Positions 24,728 through 45,680 of a stretch of 64,000 bases of DNA are shown here, piece by piece; position 1 is the stretch's first letter, and each line of letters opens with the position of its first letter. Source of the DNA: Parcubacteria bacterium C7867-007. GTDB taxonomy: Bacteria; Patescibacteriota; Minisyncoccia; Phycocordibacterales; Phycocordibacteraceae. A model generated the notes under the pieces. That model had not been told where the DNA came from and searched no databases. It saw nothing but the letters and a program-made list of their open reading frames with translations. The position numbers were made by a program, and so were the translations under genes. The stretch spans positions 141,645-205,644 of the forward strand of contig LFCQ01000003.1 in assembly GCA_001189195.1 (NCBI GenBank). Direction: 5' to 3'.

Positions 24728-24961
24728 ATGAAGAATACTAAACGAAGGGAGGGTCGTACGTGGACGATGCTCAAAAGATTGGTCTCACCAAAGACCCCTC
24801 TTGGCGGCGCACTGATCGGTGGTGCCTGTGTGGTTCTATTATTCATATCGTATTCACTTGTCAGTGGACAAAGTCCTGAGGAATCTCGTACTAAGTTCGT
24901 AGAGAAGTATCAGTCTATTAACCAGACTGCATATCGTGCCTCTGCAAAGAATTCCCGTTAA
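24728..24961 (+). CDS. small membrane-anchored hypothetical protein
   Basis: Weak RBS. One TM helix (LGGALIGGACVVLLFISYSLV). Immediately upstream of the pilin gene. Confidence 0.3.
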   Translation: MKNTKRREGRTWTMLKRLVSPKTPLGGALIGGACVVLLFISYSLVSGQSPEESRTKFVEKYQSINQTAYRASAKNSR

Positions 24962-24965
24962 TACT

Positions 24966-25691
24966 ATGAAAAAAACTCTACGAAGTAATCGCGGCTTTAC
25001 ACTCATTGAACTCTTGGTGGTGATTTCGATCATTTCACTGGTAGCAAGCCTTACCTTTGCAAACATAACTAGCGCTCGTACAAAGGCACTTGATACTCGC
25101 AAGAAGGCAGACCTCACCACCATTCGTACGGCGATTCAGTCATACACCTTGGATAAGGGTCGTGCTCCAAACAACTATGATTGCACGGGTGGTACCTGTG
25201 TGGTCAACAATGCACGCACAACCATTGCTATTGAAGATGCTCCTGGTGCAGCAGCAACCGAAAGCGGCCAAGCATACAATGCAGCAATGCAGGAGCTTGT
25301 CACCAACAAGTATCTTCCCGCAGTACCACGATCCCCGGGTGGTGCAGGCTACGCCTATTACAACTATGGTTCAGGCACTTCTGCAGGAGCCGTAATTGCA
25401 ACATCACTTGATGCTGAGGTTGCTTCTGAAAAAGGTGCAACGGGTAGCTGTCGCCCATTCCCTGGAGCTGGTGGTAGCGGTTCAGGTGGTGAGATAGGGG
25501 GAGGTGGTGGAGGAGGGGGAGGTTTTGAACTAGACCCCCTTGATCCAGGTGAACTGGGTGGAGACATCTGCTTGTACTTTGATGGTGATGTTCTGTATGA
25601 AGGACCCTGTCCTCTTGGCTTTGACTCAGATGCACCAAACATCTGCAGCGCATCACTCTCGAAAGACTTTTGTCTCTGCAGCACGTACTAA
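24966..25691 (+). CDS. type IV pilin/pseudopilin (prepilin-type N-terminal cleavage/methylation domain)
   Basis: MKKTLRSNRG|FTLIELLVVISIISLVA class III signal. Has a Gly run (GGGGGGGGG) and a Cys-rich C-terminus. Confidence 0.8.
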   Translation: MKKTLRSNRGFTLIELLVVISIISLVASLTFANITSARTKALDTRKKADLTTIRTAIQSYTLDKGRAPNNYDCTGGTCVVNNARTTIAIEDAPGAAATESGQAYNAAMQELVTNKYLPAVPRSPGGAGYAYYNYGSGTSAGAVIATSLDAEVASEKGATGSCRPFPGAGGSGSGGEIGGGGGGGGGFELDPLDPGELGGDICLYFDGDVLYEGPCPLGFDSDAPNICSASLSKDFCLCSTY

Positions 25692-26028: not shown

Positions 26029-26173
26029 GAAGATGACCAGAATCCCTGGTATGGGCGCCTTTGCTCAACAAAGGCGCCCTCTATCGTCACTTTTGACTTT
26101 CTATAAAAAATCATTATTATAAGTTTCAGTACCAGAGTTCCTATCAACAACATAGACCGAAAGGACATGCTTG

Positions 26174-27622
26174 ATGCACCGCATCATTCCCGATTGGACC
26201 AGATGGGCGGTACCCATACTAGGGATACTTTCCATTCTGGTCTTTGTGCCCTCGCTGATCTACTTCAGCCGGGCAAACGATCACCAGGACTACAGCAAGG
26301 TTCCTGCACTCACCCCAGCACAATACACTGCTGAGGTGAAGGCAATCGTTGCCGCTACATACGCGGCTCCGACTGAGGACCCTGCGGACTACTACCGTAC
26401 GGCGATTCGCGCTCAGAACTTCAACGTTATGGAGGAGCGCTTCCGTCGTGATCACCCTGCCGAATGGCAGAGACTCGCGCACAAGCGTTCCGCCAGCATG
26501 ACGTTCAACGTCGGGCTCTTGATGAATGAGTACGAACAGAAGTTCGGCCATTCAACAATGGTGGATACTGCGGACCGTATGCGTCCGTGGATGAACGAGC
26601 AGATCGGATCGATTTCAGCACCCCCGGACCAAGTCCGGCTGGACAAGGCAGGCTGGTGGTTCGTTCGTGGATACATCATGTGTGTTCTGCTCAGCGTGCT
26701 GTTCTACATGGCGCGTCTCAAGCAGGAAGGCATGCTGATCTGGCCCGAGATGACCACAGGCTTCCTGTTCTTGGCCGCGTTCACTGGCCTTGGCGTCGTC
26801 ATGATCTACCCTCGGAACATCGATCCAATCGTGCAGATCAAGCGGGCCTGGCGATTCATCGCTGGTCTCGCTGCTGGTTCCATCTCGCTTGCGGGAATGG
26901 CTGGCATGGCTAACGCGCGAGAACGTCTGGAAAGCAGCGCGGCCGAGAACGCCAAGGTGTTTATCCTTCCGTTCGTTCCGATGCCTGAGTTCTCGTTCTC
27001 AAGTGGTGTCATGTCGTCAAAGGTGACTGGCAACGGCACCCGCGTCAACGATGGCATCACGTACACCGGTGGTGTGCACGCAGCCTTCGCTGGTGGCGTG
27101 GACTTGGATCTGTCCGGCACCAGGCAAGCTACGGGCAACGCGTCGGATGAGATCGACTACACCATCTCGAAGACGATGAAAGGAAAGGCAGGGTCGGTTA
27201 CGGCCGGCTTCGCCTATTTCGATATCGTCCCGGTGGGCAGAAGCAAGGGAGGCGACATGATCTCCCCCTTCATCAGTCTCGAGCACAAGCTCGGGTACGG
27301 CCTGACGGCCTTCGCGAAGGCGGACGGATACTTCCTAACGCACGGACCTCCAACCAACAATGGCTTCGACGTGATTGCCGGACTCAAGGGAAGCACGCAA
27401 GTGCGCTCTCTGAGGTTCGATCACTCCGTCTCGGCCGTTCTGAGCGACGGTCCGTTCGGACAGTCTGCAGGCACGACCCTGCGCTTCGACGAGGCAATCT
27501 CAGTGCCCGTCACAAAGCGTCTGCGGGCTTCCACCAATTTCAAGCTCTTCGTTCCTATCCAAGGATCGAAAGGTCGAGAAATGGACGTCTCTGGCGGCCT
27601 CGGTCTGAACTACGCGTTCTAA
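26174..27622 (+). CDS. GC-rich (~58%) hypothetical membrane protein with a beta-rich C-terminal domain ending in an OMP-like aromatic residue
   Basis: AAAGGA RBS. N-terminal TM plus three central TM helices. The C-terminal ~230 aa show alternating hydrophobic beta pattern and end in GLGLNYAF. GC3-rich codons. Confidence 0.55.
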   Translation: MHRIIPDWTRWAVPILGILSILVFVPSLIYFSRANDHQDYSKVPALTPAQYTAEVKAIVAATYAAPTEDPADYYRTAIRAQNFNVMEERFRRDHPAEWQRLAHKRSASMTFNVGLLMNEYEQKFGHSTMVDTADRMRPWMNEQIGSISAPPDQVRLDKAGWWFVRGYIMCVLLSVLFYMARLKQEGMLIWPEMTTGFLFLAAFTGLGVVMIYPRNIDPIVQIKRAWRFIAGLAAGSISLAGMAGMANARERLESSAAENAKVFILPFVPMPEFSFSSGVMSSKVTGNGTRVNDGITYTGGVHAAFAGGVDLDLSGTRQATGNASDEIDYTISKTMKGKAGSVTAGFAYFDIVPVGRSKGGDMISPFISLEHKLGYGLTAFAKADGYFLTHGPPTNNGFDVIAGLKGSTQVRSLRFDHSVSAVLSDGPFGQSAGTTLRFDEAISVPVTKRLRASTNFKLFVPIQGSKGREMDVSGGLGLNYAF

Positions 27623-30421: not shown

Positions 30422-30465
30422 AAGACCCCTGTCTCAATACGAGACAGGGGTCTTGACTCTTTGTC
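30422..30465 (+). terminator. terminator hairpin after rpmA
   Basis: 14-bp stem aagacccctgtctc/gagacaggggtctt with loop aatac, and a weak T tract. Confidence 0.6.
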
Positions 30466-30545
30466 AAGAATGTGATAATCTCCTGCCAGAACCCGGAATG
30501 TGCGAATTCCGTCAGTGGTTCTTTGCAAACCAAAATAGGTGTCTA

Positions 30546-31754
30546 ATGCAAAGTGTCCGAAACTGGTGGACGCTAGCTTTCAGCGTCTTCACCCTCATCC
30601 TGATGCTAAGCCTTCCCGGCTTGGCAGAAGCCAAAGATCTCGGTCCAAACGGCCTCAGGGCCGCCTGCACCACCGACCTGCTCAAGCACGTCGGCATGAA
30701 TAACGAGGAGGCCAGACGCCTTCCCGTTGGATTCAAGGTGAGCTACATGAACCGGGAGTTCAAGCTCACCAAGAGTCCGCCGAAGTCCCTCTGGGGCGTC
30801 TGTGAGATCCTCGTCAAAGACGGGGTCTACACCAACGCGAACGTCTTGCATAGCACTGCACCGGCGAAGCCTCCGATTCCGGAAGCGAAGCCTGTGCCTG
30901 CTCCCAAGCCGCCCGTGGCCGCAACGCCGCCGGCACCTGAAGCTGCTCCTGTGGCGCCTTCTCCGCCGAAAGCCGAAACGCCCGTCGCTGAGCCGCCCAA
31001 AGCAGCAAAAGCGCCGGAACCGACGGCTGACACGCCGCCTGTATACGGATCGCCCACCATCGTCGACAAGATGTGGTTCGCGACCCGTGACTTCTTCGGT
31101 GGACTGAACGATTGGCGGAAGCAACATCCCGTCATCGCATCGTCCATCGGAATACTGATCATTCTGATTCTGATCGGTCTCTTCTTCTTCATAAAATGGC
31201 GGGGCGAAGGTTCGGCTGAAACTGATGAGGAAGATGAAGATGAGGTGGAGCAGACTCACGATGAGAACGCTCCTGACTACGTCGACTACGAAACCATACT
31301 CCCGATTGCCGCAGCTGAAGAAGCTGCACTCGAACAACCGCCGATCCCGCACTACATGGTGCTCTCGGACGACGAGTTCGAGAGACAAGCCGTGGCTGCA
31401 GGTTTCGGTCCCAAGGCATCCGAAACAACCCAGAAGCGCTATCGCGCAGGGCTCGCTGTGATCGGTTTCCGTCCGGACAAGGAGGAAGCCCAACGACGAG
31501 GAAAGCTCGTCGACTCGCGCAGCGTGGAAGAGGAGTTCGATTTCCAGGACGCTAACGACAATGACGAAGTCACCACCGAAGCTCCTTCGATCGAACCCTT
31601 GCCTGATCTACCCCCTCTCACCGATCAAGAGCGGGCGGCGATCGGCGAAGACCTTGCTGCTGCCAGAATGATCGTCAACGAACATAAGGCCGCAACTCGC
31701 GGTACCGGTGTTCCGGAACCGTTTTCCGACAAGCTGGCCGGCAAGCCCATCTGA
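30546..31754 (+). CDS. GC-rich (~60%) single-pass membrane protein with a Pro/Ala-rich linker and an acidic C-terminal tail
   Basis: Start at MQSVRNWWTLAFSVFTLILMLSLPGLAEA (signal peptide). A PAPKPP/PEA-rich linker, TM helix VIASSIGILIILILIGLFFFIKW, then a D/E-rich tail. Confidence 0.55.
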   Translation: MQSVRNWWTLAFSVFTLILMLSLPGLAEAKDLGPNGLRAACTTDLLKHVGMNNEEARRLPVGFKVSYMNREFKLTKSPPKSLWGVCEILVKDGVYTNANVLHSTAPAKPPIPEAKPVPAPKPPVAATPPAPEAAPVAPSPPKAETPVAEPPKAAKAPEPTADTPPVYGSPTIVDKMWFATRDFFGGLNDWRKQHPVIASSIGILIILILIGLFFFIKWRGEGSAETDEEDEDEVEQTHDENAPDYVDYETILPIAAAEEAALEQPPIPHYMVLSDDEFERQAVAAGFGPKASETTQKRYRAGLAVIGFRPDKEEAQRRGKLVDSRSVEEEFDFQDANDNDEVTTEAPSIEPLPDLPPLTDQERAAIGEDLAAARMIVNEHKAATRGTGVPEPFSDKLAGKPI

Positions 31755-41575: not shown

Positions 41576-42031
41576 ATGACCCTCCACGAAACACTTAAGA
41601 AAGGCATCCCGGACGCACTTCGCGCCAAGGATGAAGTACGCCTTCGCACTCTCCGTTCTGTTGTTACCCTTATGACCAACGAAGTGGTGGCAAAGAAGCG
41701 TAAGCCAGATGAATTCCTCACGGACGAGGAAGCACTCGCGGTACTTAAACGTGCCGCAAATCAGCGCAAGGATTCTATTGAGCAATTCACCGCAGGTGGA
41801 CGTCCTGAACTTGCAGAACCTGAGATCGTTGAGCTTGAGGTTATCAACTCTTTCCTCCCCACTCTTATGTCTCGTGAAGAGATTGAACCCATTGTTAAAG
41901 CAAAGATTGCTGAGCTTGGTGTAACCGATAAATCAGGTGCCGGAAAACTCACAGGTTCACTAATGCAGGAACTCAAGGGAAAAGCAGACGGTGGCGATGT
42001 GAAGGCGGTTGTGGACGCACTCCTTTCATAA
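41576..42031 (+). CDS. GatB/YqeY domain protein
   Basis: 151 aa. LKKGIPDALRAKDEVRLRTLRSV...LSREEIEPIV matches the YqeY family pattern. Confidence 0.75.
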   Translation: MTLHETLKKGIPDALRAKDEVRLRTLRSVVTLMTNEVVAKKRKPDEFLTDEEALAVLKRAANQRKDSIEQFTAGGRPELAEPEIVELEVINSFLPTLMSREEIEPIVKAKIAELGVTDKSGAGKLTGSLMQELKGKADGGDVKAVVDALLS

Positions 42032-42035
42032 TCCT

Positions 42036-42063
42036 TTGACTTTTAGTGCGTCGGCACTATTAT
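42036..42063 (+). promoter_or_regulatory. sigma70-like promoter (TTGACT-16-TATTAT)
   Basis: Near-consensus -35 and -10 with 16-nt spacing, immediately downstream of the yqeY stop. Confidence 0.45.
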
Positions 42064-42095
42064 ACCGACAGTACCCACGGCGACGGAGAATTCCG

Positions 42096-42479
42096 GTGAC
42101 CAGGTTCGTTCCCTACAGTGAAGTTACCCGCGAAGAAATTCGTACGGGCATTAAGCACGCAAGCTCGAAGCATCATCTGATGTTCAGTCTTGAAGAAGAC
42201 AAGGCACGGAGAATTGCCAACCGAGCGGGCAGAAATATGCACGAGAGGAACTGGAAACGCGATCGGGCGATACCAGAAGCTGTTCAAAGCGTGCTTGCTC
42301 CCGACTCGCGCAGCGGGATCTATGCTAAGGCGTACAATTCTGTCGTTTCGAAGATCTTCAGCGACCGAAGCGCCAAGGCTCGCAAACACGCAGCTTTGCT
42401 TCGCCGCCAAGCGAGTGCACCGTATCGGCCTCCAGTGCAACTGAGCTTCCGCTTTGTACTGGACAAGCCTCTTCGGTGA
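42096..42479 (+). CDS. small basic (Arg/Lys-rich) hypothetical protein; start uncertain (GTG at 42096 with GGAG RBS, or ATG at 42180)
   Basis: Self-contained unit with promoter, RBS, ORF and terminator hairpin (ggccgc...gcggcc followed by tttctcg at 42483-42510). GC-richer than its neighbours. Confidence 0.35.
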   Translation: MTRFVPYSEVTREEIRTGIKHASSKHHLMFSLEEDKARRIANRAGRNMHERNWKRDRAIPEAVQSVLAPDSRSGIYAKAYNSVVSKIFSDRSAKARKHAALLRRQASAPYRPPVQLSFRFVLDKPLR

Positions 42480-43345: not shown

Positions 43346-43375
43346 TTGACATTTATTAAATACAGGGTGTATAAT
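43346..43375 (+). promoter_or_regulatory. consensus sigma70 promoter (TTGACA-18-TATAAT)
   Basis: Exact consensus hexamers, directly after the truB stop and 22 nt upstream of the RBS of the small gene. Confidence 0.6.
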
Positions 43376-43397
43376 ACTTGCAGGTTAGGAGCACGCT

Positions 43398-43595
43398 ATG
43401 GATATGAAGGAGCTACAAGAGATTGTCTCTCGCGCCTTCAGCGGGAGCGTCTCATCAGACGACCCGATCACCAAAGCCATCGCGGTAGTGGTGATCATAG
43501 TTATTTTCGTGTGGGCAGGGACTTCGTCCCACACCCGCGTTAAGAAGCAGCGTGAACACGCAAAACGCGGGTATTATGACTTTCGCAGGAAGTAA
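43398..43595 (+). CDS. small single-TM protein (65 aa)
   Basis: AGGAG 7 nt upstream of ATG. Hydrophobic core AIAVVVIIVIFVWAG and a basic C-terminus. Followed by a terminator. Confidence 0.55.
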   Translation: MDMKELQEIVSRAFSGSVSSDDPITKAIAVVVIIVIFVWAGTSSHTRVKKQREHAKRGYYDFRRK

Positions 43596-43601
43596 CTGCT
43601 G

Positions 43602-43640
43602 CCCCCAGACAACTGTCTGGGGGTTATCGTTTCCCTTTGA
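43602..43640 (+). terminator. rho-independent terminator
   Basis: 10-bp stem cccccagaca/tgtctggggg followed by a T-rich tract. Confidence 0.7.
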
Positions 43641-43703
43641 CCGTTTATACAAATAATTGTATATTCACAGCGGACGTTTTTCACAACTTGAGGGGTATCA
43701 CCC

Positions 43704-45578
43704 ATGAAACTCATCGCAATCTTAGTGATACTCTTCTCCCTGTTCAATGTGGAGGTGAGCTACGCGAAGGACAAGCCGATCGGTGGCCTCTGTGGAGGTT
43801 CGTTTGTTGGCTCCAACACCTGCGTATGGAATGAAGACACTCACGAGTGGACCGAAACGTACGTGGGCTGGGACAACTGGGAATGGCAAGCTATCTCCGA
43901 TCAGCCTGAACGAGCGGACACCATCCGCCGGATGCATCTTCCCCGGCAGGTGCCGGTCGAGAAGAAATACTCGGTCAGCCTGAACACGGAAGCGTGCCTG
44001 AAGCCGGAGTATCAGCTCCTGCTTAGCGCTGCGGTTCTGCTACCTTCGAATCGAAAACCAATCACGGCTTCGCGTCGTGTGGTGATCATAAACGTTGAAG
44101 GTGGAGATTGGCCTGAAGAATCTCGCATCTGGCCGCACCTCGGTATCAACTACGTGGGCACAGTCGCGAAGCAAGAAGGATACGAGGTTGTTCTGTACGA
44201 TGAACTCATTCAAGGGCGCAAGCCACTGAAGGAGATTGTTCGTCCGGGAGACATCGTTGGCCTGAGCCTTGTGACCACCGGCATCGAGCGCGGCGTTATC
44301 GTCGCACAAGAAGCCAAGGTGCTCGGCGCCTGCTATGTGATCGCTGGAAATGACTCCGCAATGTTCCGTGCCAGACAGCTCCTTGAGCTACCTGGTCGGC
44401 CCATTGATGCCGTCTTCACCAGCAACAGTGTCGTCACCATCCGGGAGTTCTTCCGGAATGCCGACGCAGTGATCGCAGATTCAATGCAGATCGAACAAGT
44501 GGCAACAGCGCCTGAACAGGTACCATACGTTTCCAACGAGCATGACGGAGTTGCGCTCGAACGGAAAGCATACACCGCAGAAGACTTCTTCTTGGTCCCT
44601 GATCTCTCGCTCTTCAGCGACGAGTACTGGGAACTCGTTCGCGCTGCGTATCGTTCGCAGTTCGGACACAAGCACCAAGACTCTGCTAACGTTCACAATG
44701 CCATCGCACTTCTCGCGCAAGGCTGTGGACGAGCAGGTATGGGAGACATCTGTGACTACTGCACCATCCGCCACGTGGCGAATGTGGTTCAACCCTCGCC
44801 TGGGTATCTTGAGGAAACTCTCGCTACATACCGGGCACACGGCGTGAACACGTTCTTCAATGTGACAGACTCGGCCTTTGAGATGGGAGTGCTCGCAAAA
44901 CAGCTCGAAGAAGCTGGTCCTGTGGATACACTCATCATCTACGGTCGGGCGCAGGCTATCGCGCAGCGTCCTGATCTTCTTGAACGCTGGAAGAGTTGTG
45001 TGAGCGAACGACTGCTCATCAACTGCGGTATGGACTCAGGAGATGAACGTATCCTGCAAACCGGCATTCACAAGTCCGGAAGCAAGGTTGGGTCTCGTCT
45101 CCAGGAAAACTATAGGACTCTCGCTAATATTAAGGCGGCGGGACCTAAGGTTCATCTGCATTTCTCGGTGATCTTCGGTTCTCCCGGAGAGACCCATGAG
45201 TCGTGCGAAGCCACACTGCAGTTTGTACAGCATGCTATCGACACACTGGGTGAACAACTCGATGTCGTTGAGGGCGATGTCTTCTGGGTTAACTTCGGAG
45301 CACCGTGCAGCGAAATCTTCACGAACTACGAAGCGACACAGAAGCGTGCTGCACTTGCTGGGAAAACTATCTCCCAGGATGAGTGGCAACAGTGCTTTGG
45401 TCGTCACGCAGACGAACTTGTCGTGCCGGAGGAGTCCCAACAAGCTTGGTATGCCTTCTTCACGAACATCACCATCGAAGATGCGTGGGCATACAACGCT
45501 CAAGTTCGTGAGATGCTGACGCAAGTTCCTGGACATATCACGGGCCGTGAATATGCGTTCAGACCACCAACGGTGTGA
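43704..45578 (+). CDS. B12-binding-domain radical SAM-like protein (class B family) with an N-terminal signal-peptide-like segment and an atypical Cys motif
   Basis: GAGGGG RBS. N-terminus MKLIAILVILFSLFNVEVSYA. B12-binding-like Rossmann segment VVIINVEGGDWPEESRIWPHLGINYVGTVAKQEGYEVVLYD. Cys triad AQGCGRAGMGDICDYC (CX9CX2C rather than CX3CX2C). Class-B radical SAM downstream motifs INCGMDSGDERILQTGIHKSGS and AAGPKVHLHFSVIFGSPGETHESCEATLQF. GC about 55%. Confidence 0.6.
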   Translation: MKLIAILVILFSLFNVEVSYAKDKPIGGLCGGSFVGSNTCVWNEDTHEWTETYVGWDNWEWQAISDQPERADTIRRMHLPRQVPVEKKYSVSLNTEACLKPEYQLLLSAAVLLPSNRKPITASRRVVIINVEGGDWPEESRIWPHLGINYVGTVAKQEGYEVVLYDELIQGRKPLKEIVRPGDIVGLSLVTTGIERGVIVAQEAKVLGACYVIAGNDSAMFRARQLLELPGRPIDAVFTSNSVVTIREFFRNADAVIADSMQIEQVATAPEQVPYVSNEHDGVALERKAYTAEDFFLVPDLSLFSDEYWELVRAAYRSQFGHKHQDSANVHNAIALLAQGCGRAGMGDICDYCTIRHVANVVQPSPGYLEETLATYRAHGVNTFFNVTDSAFEMGVLAKQLEEAGPVDTLIIYGRAQAIAQRPDLLERWKSCVSERLLINCGMDSGDERILQTGIHKSGSKVGSRLQENYRTLANIKAAGPKVHLHFSVIFGSPGETHESCEATLQFVQHAIDTLGEQLDVVEGDVFWVNFGAPCSEIFTNYEATQKRAALAGKTISQDEWQQCFGRHADELVVPEESQQAWYAFFTNITIEDAWAYNAQVREMLTQVPGHITGREYAFRPPTV

Positions 45579-45598
45579 GTGAATATAGATAACTGACC

Positions 45599-45630
45599 CC
45601 GCGTCTTTATGGCGTGGGGTTCTTTGTATA
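45599..45630 (+). terminator. rho-independent terminator after the radical SAM gene
   Basis: ccccgcg-(9 nt)-cgtgggg followed by ttctttgta. Confidence 0.55.
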
Positions 45631-45680
45631 AAAGATGAGATTCAAATGCAAAAGCCGCCTTTCGGCGGTATTTGCTCGTG

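What the first reader, a model, noticed from the sequence alone, without database searches (positions are those of the whole stretch)
43346..45640. Consensus promoter, a 65-aa TM peptide, then a signal-peptide-bearing B12-binding radical SAM-like protein with a CX9CX2C motif
An exact TTGACA-18-TATAAT promoter drives a tiny single-TM protein with its own terminator. It is followed by a 624-aa GC-rich protein whose central region matches class-B (cobalamin-dependent) radical SAM enzymes: a B12 Rossmann segment, a GMDSGDERIL-type motif and a GSPGETHESCEATLQF motif. The Fe-S-binding triad is spaced CX9CX2C, and the N-terminus looks like a cleavable signal peptide plus an about 80-aa Trp-rich extension. 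An exported or membrane-anchored radical SAM enzyme would be unprecedented. Alternatively the N-terminus is a membrane anchor. The adjacent small gene could be a substrate or partner. This is possibly a horizontally acquired modification system.
Basis: partly seen in the sequence, partly recalled or inferred. Interest (0 to 1): 0.6.

Follow-up and report, generated by a model that had tools for sequence, protein, structure and literature searches.

The report
Membrane-tagged B12-type radical SAM enzyme
The large gene is a real member of an undescribed family of B12-type radical SAM enzymes found almost only in tiny Patescibacteria; it carries a conserved greasy N-terminal tag that more likely tethers it to the membrane than exports it, and the small upstream gene is an unrelated orphan.

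Summary
The window comes from Parcubacteria bacterium C7867-007. One correction: the cysteine motif is C341-X8-C350-X2-C353, not CX9CX2C.

The 624-aa protein falls below the Pfam cut-offs. A confident AlphaFold model (pLDDT 92.8) matches TsrM, AprD4, MgmA, TokK and CysS, which are class-B architectures (Rossmann domain, radical SAM barrel, C-terminal domain). It belongs to an unnamed family of at least 191 proteins, labelled almost entirely as Patescibacteria. The three loop cysteines and C501 are invariant.

The ~110-aa N-terminal module is translated and conserved in about 5 of 6 members. It has no recognisable fold. It starts with a 12-residue, uniformly hydrophobic, signal-peptide-like helix. 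Members show no twin-arginine motif, no conserved signal-peptidase site and no second TM segment. Export of the catalytic domain is therefore unlikely, and a membrane tether is the best reading.

The small TM gene is an orphan. It is a separate transcription unit and is not conserved next to homologues.

The family shows a persistent, unexplained GC3 excess in 34 of 37 loci. The substrate is unknown.

The parts
43346..43375 (+). Exact sigma-70 consensus promoter (TTGACA-18 nt-TATAAT) for the small ORF
   Evidence: 12/12 match. It is the only exact match in the window, with 0.05 expected by chance.
43398..43595 (+). 65-aa orphan ORF with an acidic N-terminus, one TM span (~residues 27-41) and a basic C-terminal tail. 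Its SD (AGGAG) is at 43387-43391.
   Evidence: ORF and sequence. The only database match is itself, AB202_01075. Pfam, PADLOC and PHROGs give no hit. The sister genome has a 53-aa single-TM ORF at the same position that cannot be aligned to it.
43601..43624 (+). Terminator-like hairpin (10 bp, 7 GC) ending the small-ORF transcription unit
   Evidence: -20.4 kcal/mol, z -4.5. It is conserved in the sister genome, while the ORF upstream of it is not.
43637..43665 (+). The radical SAM gene's own promoter-like site, TTGACC-17-TATATT. The SD (GAGGGG) is at 43690-43695.
   Evidence: 10/12 match. The promoter and 5'UTR are nearly identical in L001. They are also recognisably conserved in L051, whose protein is 78% identical, though only ~300 nt of that contig lie upstream. 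No Rfam or riboswitch match.
43704..45578 (+). 624-aa B12-domain/radical SAM enzyme (AB202_01080)
43707..43745 (+). N-terminal uniformly hydrophobic helix (aa 2-14), signal-peptide-like or a membrane anchor
   Evidence: Family median h-region is 12 aa. N-flank charge is +1.4 and C-flank -0.4. Eisenberg <H> is 0.89 and muH 0.15. RR occurs in 0/46 and strict AXA in 5/46.
43704..44042 (+). Family-specific N-terminal module (aa 1-113), Trp-rich, with motifs VEVxYxKDxP, LWGNP..I.YD...HVW.N.N and PxxVPxKK
44076..44483 (+). Rossmann-type B12-binding-like domain (aa ~125-260), with motifs WPHLGxxYVGT and AGNDSA
   Evidence: Pfam B12-binding matches residues 142-233 at 22.6 bits, below GA 32.1. Several homologues carry a precomputed PF02310 hit. 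Fold matches TsrM, TokK and CysS.
44724..44762 (+). Expanded Fe-S cluster loop C341-X8-C350-X2-C353
   Evidence: Positions. All three Cys are invariant in 120/120 homologues. More distant relatives have CX6-8CX2C.
44691..45293 (+). Radical SAM partial TIM-barrel domain (aa ~330-530), including GMDSGDERIL and IFGSPGET (the GxIxGxxE-type motif)
   Evidence: Pfam Radical_SAM matches residues 350-508 at 20.6 bits, below GA 29.5. Supported by AF2 secondary structure and Foldseek hits.
45204..45206 (+). Codon of C501, a fourth invariant cysteine and candidate catalytic residue
   Evidence: Invariant in 120/120. Kept in the nearest N-domain-less relatives P0127 and P0130 but not in the second tier.
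45595..45621 (+). Intrinsic terminator of the radical SAM gene
   Evidence: 11-bp stem followed by a T-run. -21.4 kcal/mol, z -5.1.

Best explanation
The 624-aa ORF is a stand-alone gene with its own promoter, SD and terminator. It encodes a member of an uncharacterised family of class-B-like radical SAM enzymes whose members are labelled almost entirely as Patescibacteria.

Shown here:
- The domain order is a Rossmann (cobalamin-type) domain, a radical SAM barrel and a C-terminal helical domain.
- The cluster loop is expanded to an invariant CX8CX2C.
- C501 is a fourth invariant cysteine.
- No auxiliary-cluster motifs are present.

Inferred from the established chemistry of the superfamily: the three loop cysteines hold a [4Fe-4S] cluster that reductively cleaves SAM to a 5'-deoxyadenosyl radical. 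This radical abstracts a hydrogen atom from the substrate. The Rossmann domain either carries cobalamin for methyl transfer (as in TokK, CysS and MgmA) or is cofactor-free (as in AprD4). C501 may act as a hydrogen-atom donor or acceptor.

The ~110-aa N-terminal module begins with a 12-residue, uniformly hydrophobic helix. It most likely tethers the enzyme to the cytoplasmic face or leaflet of the membrane. The catalytic domains would then stay in the cytoplasm, where SAM, reductant and Fe-S assembly are available. This suggests a membrane-associated substrate, such as a lipid or a lipid-linked envelope precursor. That step is inference only.

The upstream 65-aa TM gene is a separate, fast-evolving orphan gene. 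It is not a partner or substrate.
For: Identity and family:
- P0001 is 100% identical to AB202_01080 of Parcubacteria bacterium C7867-007. At least 191 homologues were found, most 600-630 aa.
- 44 loci were found among 185,579 species genomes. Their labels are Patescibacteria lineages or generic placeholder bin names.

Fold:
- The AF2 model has pLDDT 92.8 and pTM 0.80.
- Foldseek against PDB gives TsrM at 1.6e-15 and AprD4 at 4.4e-15, followed by MgmA, MtaB/MiaB, CysS and TokK.

Motifs:
- C341, C350, C353 and C501 are invariant in 120/120 homologues.
- The SAM-motif equivalents are conserved.

N-terminal module:
- It is conserved.
- The h-region median is 12 aa, with <H> 0.89 and muH 0.15.
- There is no RR motif, no conserved AXA site and no second TM segment.
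- About 1 in 6 homologues lack it, so it is an accessory module.

Stand-alone unit:
- The gene has its own conserved promoter and 5'UTR and its own terminators.
- No neighbour is conserved across 41 loci.

Small ORF: it is an ORFan and is not associated with homologues.
Against: - Pfam scores for both domains are below the gathering thresholds. A family profile finds no PDB sequence relative. Assignment therefore rests on the predicted fold plus motifs.
- No cofactor, activity or substrate is shown.
- The charge distribution (positive N-flank, neutral or acidic C-flank) and the 12-aa h-region fit a Sec signal or type II orientation better than a cytoplasmic tether.
- W30/I40 are replaced together by C30/C40 in this clade, which hints at a disulfide and so at an extracytoplasmic N-domain.
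- pLDDT for the first helix is about 90. It could therefore be a packed part of a soluble domain rather than a lipid anchor.
Confidence: 0.6

Rival explanations
1. The soluble cytoplasmic enzyme reading. The N-terminal hydrophobic helix is a buried or oligomer-interface element of a novel soluble N-terminal domain. That domain might serve substrate recognition or partner binding. It would be neither a signal peptide nor a membrane anchor.
For: AF2 gives the helix and the adjoining strand high confidence: pLDDT 91-95 in the domain-only model and 80-89 in the full-length model. The helix runs directly into a conserved amphipathic beta-strand, [RKN]-[VI]-[DE]-[VI]-x-Y.
Against: Twelve consecutive hydrophobic residues with muH 0.15 leave no polar face. 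The sequence is not conserved; only its hydrophobicity is, which is typical of lipid-exposed segments. A basic N-flank is always present.
Confidence: 0.22
2. A Sec-type signal peptide exports the protein or displays it on the surface. The radical SAM enzyme would then act outside the cytoplasm, or would be delivered to a host cell and matured there.
For: The architecture is signal-peptide-like: basic n-region and a median 12-aa h-region. In this protein S-Y-A fits the -3/-1 rule. Paired Cys in the N-domain occur in two sub-clades. No second TM segment would hold the rest of the chain inside.
Against: Sec export is of unfolded chains. Fe-S assembly, SAM and low-potential reductants are cytoplasmic (established knowledge). 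The twin-arginine motif needed to export a folded Fe-S protein occurs in 0/46 members, and strict AXA in 5/46. The putative cleavage site lies inside a conserved, confidently modelled beta-strand at residues 14-25. About 1 in 6 homologues have no N-terminal module, yet their catalytic residues are the same.
Confidence: 0.05
3. The RiPP-type modification system reading. The adjacent 65-aa peptide would be the substrate of the radical SAM enzyme.
For: A small ORF lies immediately upstream on the same strand. The sister genome also has a small TM ORF at that position.
Against: The two genes are separated by a terminator and a second promoter. The small ORF has no homologue anywhere. The two positional analogues do not align. 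No small TM ORF is found upstream in the other 40 loci or in three close homologues. There is no RRE-like fold, and no SPASM/twitch domain or extra Cys clusters.
Confidence: 0.03
4. The cobalamin-independent chemistry reading. As in AprD4, the Rossmann domain binds no cobalamin. The enzyme would catalyse a dehydration, rearrangement, C-C bond formation or epimerisation rather than a methylation.
For: AprD4 has the highest target-normalised TM-score, 0.69. The usual GGPHA(T) strand motif is AGNDSA here, with the His lost. An invariant non-cluster Cys501 suggests hydrogen-atom return chemistry. By general knowledge, CPR genomes usually cannot make B12.
Against: Most structural neighbours are cobalamin-dependent methylases: TsrM, MgmA, TokK, CysS and Mmp10. 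No sequence rule reliably predicts cobalamin binding in this class.
Confidence: 0.3

Closest known systems
TsrM (PDB 6WTE/6WTF), cobalamin-dependent radical SAM tryptophan 2-C-methyltransferase
   Same: Best Foldseek match, E 1.6e-15 with ~480-500 aligned columns. The domain order is the same: Rossmann B12 domain, radical SAM barrel and C-terminal domain.
   Different: Only 15-16% identical, with TM-scores of 0.47-0.55. By general knowledge TsrM has the canonical CX3CX2C motif. It has no N-terminal hydrophobic module. The NCBIfam TsrM model (TIGR04428) does not hit this protein.
AprD4 (PDB 6FD2), radical SAM 1,2-diol dehydratase with a B12-like domain
   Same: E 4.4e-15 and the highest target-normalised TM-score, 0.69. 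It shows that this architecture can work without cobalamin or methyl transfer.
   Different: 14-15% identical. It is soluble and encoded in an aminoglycoside biosynthetic cluster. It lacks the expanded cluster loop and the N-terminal module.
Other B12-binding-domain radical SAM families (BchE, HpnJ, HpnR, PhpK, MJ_1487-type, RiPP C-methyltransferases; COG1032 'YgiQ-like')
   Same: Weak NCBIfam hits to HpnR, HpnJ, PhpK and MiaB/RimO. Second-tier relatives hit BchE, HpnJ and rSAM_ocin_1 at 1e-12 to 1e-27. JGI labels some homologues as 'YgiQ (UPF0313)'.
   Different: Every score is far below the curated cut-off, for example 20 bits against 650 for HpnR. No existing NCBIfam or Pfam model describes the family.
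Radical SAM clusters with expanded CXnCX2C loops (RadicalSAM.org megaclusters with CX7, CX8, CX9 and CX11)
   Same: Non-canonical spacings, including CX8CX2C, are already catalogued, and some lie in the B12-domain megacluster 2 (PMC9477430).
   Different: Those clusters are uncharacterised, and I could not map this family onto them. The CX8 examples named there are in megacluster 4-6, not the B12 megacluster.
Viperin (RSAD2)
   Same: A radical SAM enzyme held at a membrane by an N-terminal helix (PMC8254119). A membrane-anchored radical SAM enzyme is therefore not unprecedented.
   Different: By general knowledge the viperin helix is amphipathic. Here the helix is uniformly hydrophobic, with muH 0.15. 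Viperin has no B12 domain and is only a weak, partial fold match (rank 32).

Membership tests
Radical SAM superfamily (PF04055) | Profile match at or above Pfam's gathering score | tested here: not met
   20.6 bits against GA 29.5, residues 350-508. Many homologues carry a precomputed PF04055 hit.
Radical SAM superfamily (PF04055) | Three-Cys motif (CX3CX2C or a variant) in the loop after beta-1 of the barrel | tested here: met
   C341-X8-C350-X2-C353 is invariant in 120/120 homologues. It follows strand 332-335 of the model. The spacing is non-canonical.
Radical SAM superfamily (PF04055) | Partial TIM-barrel fold shared with solved radical SAM enzymes | tested here: met
   27 PDB matches at E <= 0.001, almost all radical SAM enzymes. 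The best is 1.6e-15, on a model with pLDDT 92.8.
Radical SAM superfamily (PF04055) | [4Fe-4S]-dependent reductive cleavage of SAM | not testable with these tools
   Needs anaerobic biochemistry.
Class B (cobalamin-dependent) radical SAM enzymes | N-terminal Rossmann-type B12-binding domain preceding the barrel | tested here: met
   Pfam B12-binding matches residues 142-233 at 22.6 bits, below GA 32.1. Homologues carry PF02310. Full-length fold matches TsrM, TokK, CysS and MgmA.
Class B (cobalamin-dependent) radical SAM enzymes | Bound cobalamin and methyl transfer | not testable with these tools
   AprD4 shares the fold without cobalamin. No sequence rule is available.
Sec-exported protein with a cleavable signal peptide | Basic n-region and a 7-15-residue h-region | tested here: met
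   N-flank charge +1.4. The h-region median is 12 aa, range 8-20.
Sec-exported protein with a cleavable signal peptide | Conserved signal-peptidase I site (small residues at -3 and -1) | tested here: not met
   Strict AXA in 5/46 and a loose pattern in 20/37. The site falls within a conserved beta-strand. No trained predictor such as SignalP was available.
Tat-exported cofactor-containing protein | Twin-arginine motif in the n-region | tested here: not met
   RR in the first 12 residues in 0/46 members.
RiPP-maturing radical SAM enzyme (SPASM/twitch, RRE-dependent) | RRE (PqqD-like) domain, auxiliary-cluster Cys motifs and a conserved adjacent precursor gene | tested here: not met
Known anti-phage defence or phage protein families | Match to PADLOC or PHROGs models, or presence on viral contigs | tested here: not met
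   No hits. No relative on IMG/VR contigs.

The most novel reading that the evidence does not exclude
The N-terminal segment is a working Sec signal or signal-anchor. The whole radical SAM enzyme would then be translocated. It would either sit on the surface of the episymbiotic CPR cell or be passed to the host cell, where it would acquire its Fe-S cluster and SAM. This would be the first extracytoplasmic or effector-type radical SAM enzyme.
Probability: 0.05. Interest if true: 0.9.

Novelty: new variant of a known kind. Interest (0 to 1): 0.4.

Why it matters
CPR/Patescibacteria have minimal metabolism, and most of their lineage-specific proteins have no assigned function. This analysis defines one such family. 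It is a strongly conserved enzyme of the B12-domain radical SAM type, with an expanded CX8CX2C loop, an extra invariant cysteine and a novel-fold N-terminal module with a membrane-type tag.

If the enzyme acts on membrane-bound substrates, it could reveal how these episymbionts remodel scavenged lipids or envelope precursors. If the tag really exports it, it would overturn the view that radical SAM chemistry is confined to the cytoplasm.

The practical value now is modest: a well-delimited target family, a confident model and clear experiments.

Full report
**Source and observation.** The 624-aa product is 100% identical to hypothetical protein AB202_01080 of 'Parcubacteria bacterium C7867-007'. 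The sister MAG C7867-008 has an 88% identical copy.
- The only exact TTGACA-N18-TATAAT in the 64-kb window is at 43346-43375, against 0.05 expected.
- An AGGAG Shine-Dalgarno sequence precedes a 65-aa ORF at 43398-43595.
- A stable hairpin lies at 43601-43624, z -4.5.
- The 624-aa ORF at 43704-45578 has a GAGGGG SD and a terminator at 45595-45621, z -5.1.
- Gene GC is 0.545 against 0.487 for the window.

One detail is wrong. The cysteines are at 341, 350 and 353, so the motif is CX8CX2C, not CX9CX2C.

**What the large protein is.**
- By sequence alone it is marginal. Pfam B12-binding scores 22.6 bits (GA 32.1) and Radical_SAM 20.6 bits (GA 29.5).
- NCBIfam gives only ~20-bit hits to HpnR, RimO/MiaB, HpnJ and PhpK, against cut-offs of 250-650.
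- Neither the single sequence nor a family profile finds a significant PDB sequence relative.
- An AlphaFold model built on 96 homologues is confident, with mean pLDDT 92.8 and pTM 0.80.
- Foldseek against PDB returns almost only radical SAM enzymes with an N-terminal Rossmann domain: TsrM (E 1.6e-15), AprD4 (4.4e-15, TM 0.69 on the target), MgmA, MtaB/MiaB, CysS and TokK.
- The usual sequence landmarks of B12-domain radical SAM enzymes can be recognised. These are WPHLGxxYVGT...EVxLxDE after beta-1, VGLS, AGND(S/H)A, FNVTDSxxEM, GMDSGDxxIL and IFGSPGET. I recognised them from general knowledge of the class.
- No SPASM/twitch domain or other Cys cluster exists. Only C341, C350, C353 and C501 are invariant.

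**The family.**
- The word-indexed search found 191 homologues, with the listed 120 at 42-100% identity.
- The exhaustive search of 1.84 billion representatives found only about 20 clusters at 50% identity with E < 1e-100. After a score gap comes a second tier of ~500-aa proteins at E 1e-39 to 1e-20.
- The second tier lacks the N-terminal module. It shares an expanded loop (CX6-, CX7- or CX8-CX2C), a Y..[FY]GH.H motif before the barrel and a W..FTHI motif near the C-terminus.
- Where named, second-tier members come from a Nanoarchaeota MAG and Thermoleophilaceae MAGs. They hit BchE, HpnJ and RiPP-methylase models far below the cut-offs.
- In one genome per species, 44 loci were found. All are labelled as Patescibacteria lineages or carry generic or placeholder bin names.
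- Expanded CXnCX2C loops, including CX8, are already catalogued among uncharacterised radical SAM clusters (PMC9477430). The spacing is therefore unusual but not new.
- No Pfam or NCBIfam model and no paper describing the family was found.

**The N-terminal module.** It is not an assembly or annotation artefact.
- About 5 of 6 homologues have ~100-123 residues before the Rossmann domain. They share the motifs [VI][DE][VI]xYxK[DN]xP, LWGNPxxIxYDxxxHVWxNxN and PxxVPxKK.
- About 1 in 6 start directly at the core. In the genomic loci the maximal ORFs of these forms are only 508-542 aa, so they are genuine short forms.
- The module folds confidently, with pLDDT 89.5 when modelled alone. Its order is helix 2-12, strands 14-25, 38-43 and 48-53, helices 58-77, strand 81-93 and helices 95-112.
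- A disordered, basic linker (114-120) joins it to the core.

**Signal peptide, anchor or neither?**

Points in favour of a signal peptide:
- The first helix looks like one. The N-flank charge is +1.4 and the C-flank -0.4. The h-region median is 12 residues. It is uniformly hydrophobic, with <H> 0.89 and muH 0.15.
- Two sub-clades carry co-occurring Cys pairs in the module. In this clade C30/C40 replace the W/I pair found in most members. That would fit a disulfide.

Points against export:
- No member has a twin-arginine motif, and strict AXA is rare at 5/46.
- The would-be cleavage site lies inside the conserved strand 14-25.
- The second hydrophobic stretch is only 8-12 residues and is absent in some members. 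The chain therefore cannot re-cross the membrane.
- The topology must be all-out or all-in. An all-out radical SAM enzyme exported unfolded by Sec would lack Fe-S assembly, SAM and a reductant (established biochemistry).

My estimates are: a cytoplasmic enzyme tethered by its N-terminal helix, ~0.6; a fully soluble protein with a buried or interface helix, ~0.2; true export, ~0.05. A membrane-associated radical SAM enzyme has a precedent in viperin (PMC8254119), although the viperin helix is amphipathic.

**The small upstream gene.**
- It has all the marks of a real gene: consensus promoter, SD and terminator.
- It matches nothing but itself among 5.8 billion clusters and no Pfam, PADLOC or PHROG family.
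- In the sister genome the DNA between truB and the hairpin has diverged beyond recognition. The hairpin, second promoter and 5'UTR are almost identical.
- A 53-aa ORF of the same design (acidic N-terminus, one TM span, basic tail) sits there, but it cannot be aligned to the window's ORF.
- None of the other 40 loci has a comparable ORF upstream. Nor do two of the three close homologues (65-78% identical) whose upstream DNA is available.
- The promoter and 5'UTR of the large gene are conserved in L001 and L051.
- The two genes are therefore independent units. The substrate or partner idea is not supported.

**Genomic context and mobility.**
- No neighbour is conserved across the family.
- The commonest neighbour is a divergently transcribed TrmB-like HTH regulator, in 9-12 loci. 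It lies mainly beside forms that lack or have a shortened N-domain.
- Close homologues lie in unrelated contexts, such as next to RNR genes, the CCA-adding enzyme or dnaK.
- The gene is systematically GC3-rich. It exceeds its neighbours in 34 of 37 loci, by a mean of +13 points and by more than 2 sd in 16 loci. Here GC3 is 0.598 against 0.449, and ATC makes up 82% of Ile codons against 34%. This looks like lateral transfer.
- However, WIN, L001, L024 and L017 share the RmuC-YqeY-TruB / MurF-FtsI neighbourhood. Between these genomes the enzyme has diverged as much as MurF, FtsI and RsmH have: 44-45% against 43-48% identity. That fits long vertical residence with a persistent GC3 excess.
- There are no att repeats at the adjacent tRNA-Glu, no conserved flanking inverted repeats and no viral copies.
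- I leave the GC3 excess unexplained. Candidate explanations are recurrent transfer and gene-specific codon selection.

**Mechanism.**
- Shown: the domain architecture, the invariant Cys triad plus C501, and the stand-alone transcription unit.
- Inferred from the superfamily: a [4Fe-4S] cluster on C341/C350/C353 cleaves SAM to the 5'-deoxyadenosyl radical, which abstracts a hydrogen atom from the substrate.
- Inferred with low confidence: cobalamin-dependent methylation (~0.3-0.4), against cobalamin-free rearrangement or dehydration chemistry as in AprD4 (~0.3). C501 may be a hydrogen-atom relay.
- Inferred from the tag only: the substrate is membrane-associated.

**Verdict.** This is a real, well-conserved and previously undescribed Patescibacteria-associated variant of the B12-domain radical SAM enzymes, with a novel N-terminal module. 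The striking reading, an exported radical SAM enzyme, is unlikely. The proposed link to the small gene is not supported. Interest is moderate, at 0.4.

Noticed in passing
window 43704-45578 and loci L001-L044: The radical SAM gene is GC3-rich relative to its neighbours in 34 of 37 loci, by a mean of +13 points and up to ~8 sd. This persists even in genomes where synteny and equal divergence suggest long vertical inheritance. Possible causes are recurrent transfer or gene-specific codon selection.
   Followed up: partly
window 26171-27622 and 30453-31754 (+): Two other ORFs stand out for GC (0.576 each; GC3 0.71 and 0.64). Both are hypothetical membrane or secreted-looking proteins with no Pfam or PHROG match. 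The second has a signal-like start, a Pro/Ala-rich spacer, a TM span and an acidic tail.
   Followed up: partly
window 43376-43600 vs L001 7640-7890: Between two genomes that are otherwise ~85-95% identical, the small-ORF segment has diverged beyond alignment. The flanking hairpin, promoter and 5'UTR are nearly identical. Both versions encode an acidic-N, single-TM, basic-C mini-protein. This is a hypervariable cassette-like spot.
   Followed up: partly
window 43684-43656 (-): A weak promoter-like site (GTGAAA-17-TACAAT, 9/12) on the minus strand would drive an RNA antisense to the hairpin and 3' end of the small TM ORF. The layout is reminiscent of type I toxin-antitoxin loci. The match is at chance level.
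   Followed up: no
loci L002, L004, L025, L030, L032, L036, L038: A TrmB-like HTH regulator (~250-270 aa) is divergently adjacent to the homologue. This occurs mainly beside the variants that lack or shorten the N-terminal module.
   Followed up: partly
L045 10139-11502; L050 667-4352: A Thoeris pair (ThsA_Macro and ThsB_TIR) lies ~2 kb from one homologue. Two Gad2-type genes lie near a second-tier relative. The enzyme itself matches no PADLOC model.
   Followed up: partly
L013 and L041 (same MAG, JBGAUV01): One Paceibacteria MAG carries two copies of the family on different contigs.
   Followed up: no
window 42009-42479 (+): A 156-aa basic ORF lies between yqeY and truB and overlaps the end of yqeY. 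It has no Pfam match and no counterpart among the clustered loci.
   Followed up: no
window 24936-25691 (+): A protein with a type IV pilin N-terminal methylation motif (N_methyl, E 1.9e-8).
   Followed up: no
alignment A3 (N-domain): The profile search of the 5.8-billion-cluster database with the N-domain alignment returned no hit at E <= 0.01, not even family members. This negative result says nothing about whether the module occurs in other proteins.
   Followed up: no
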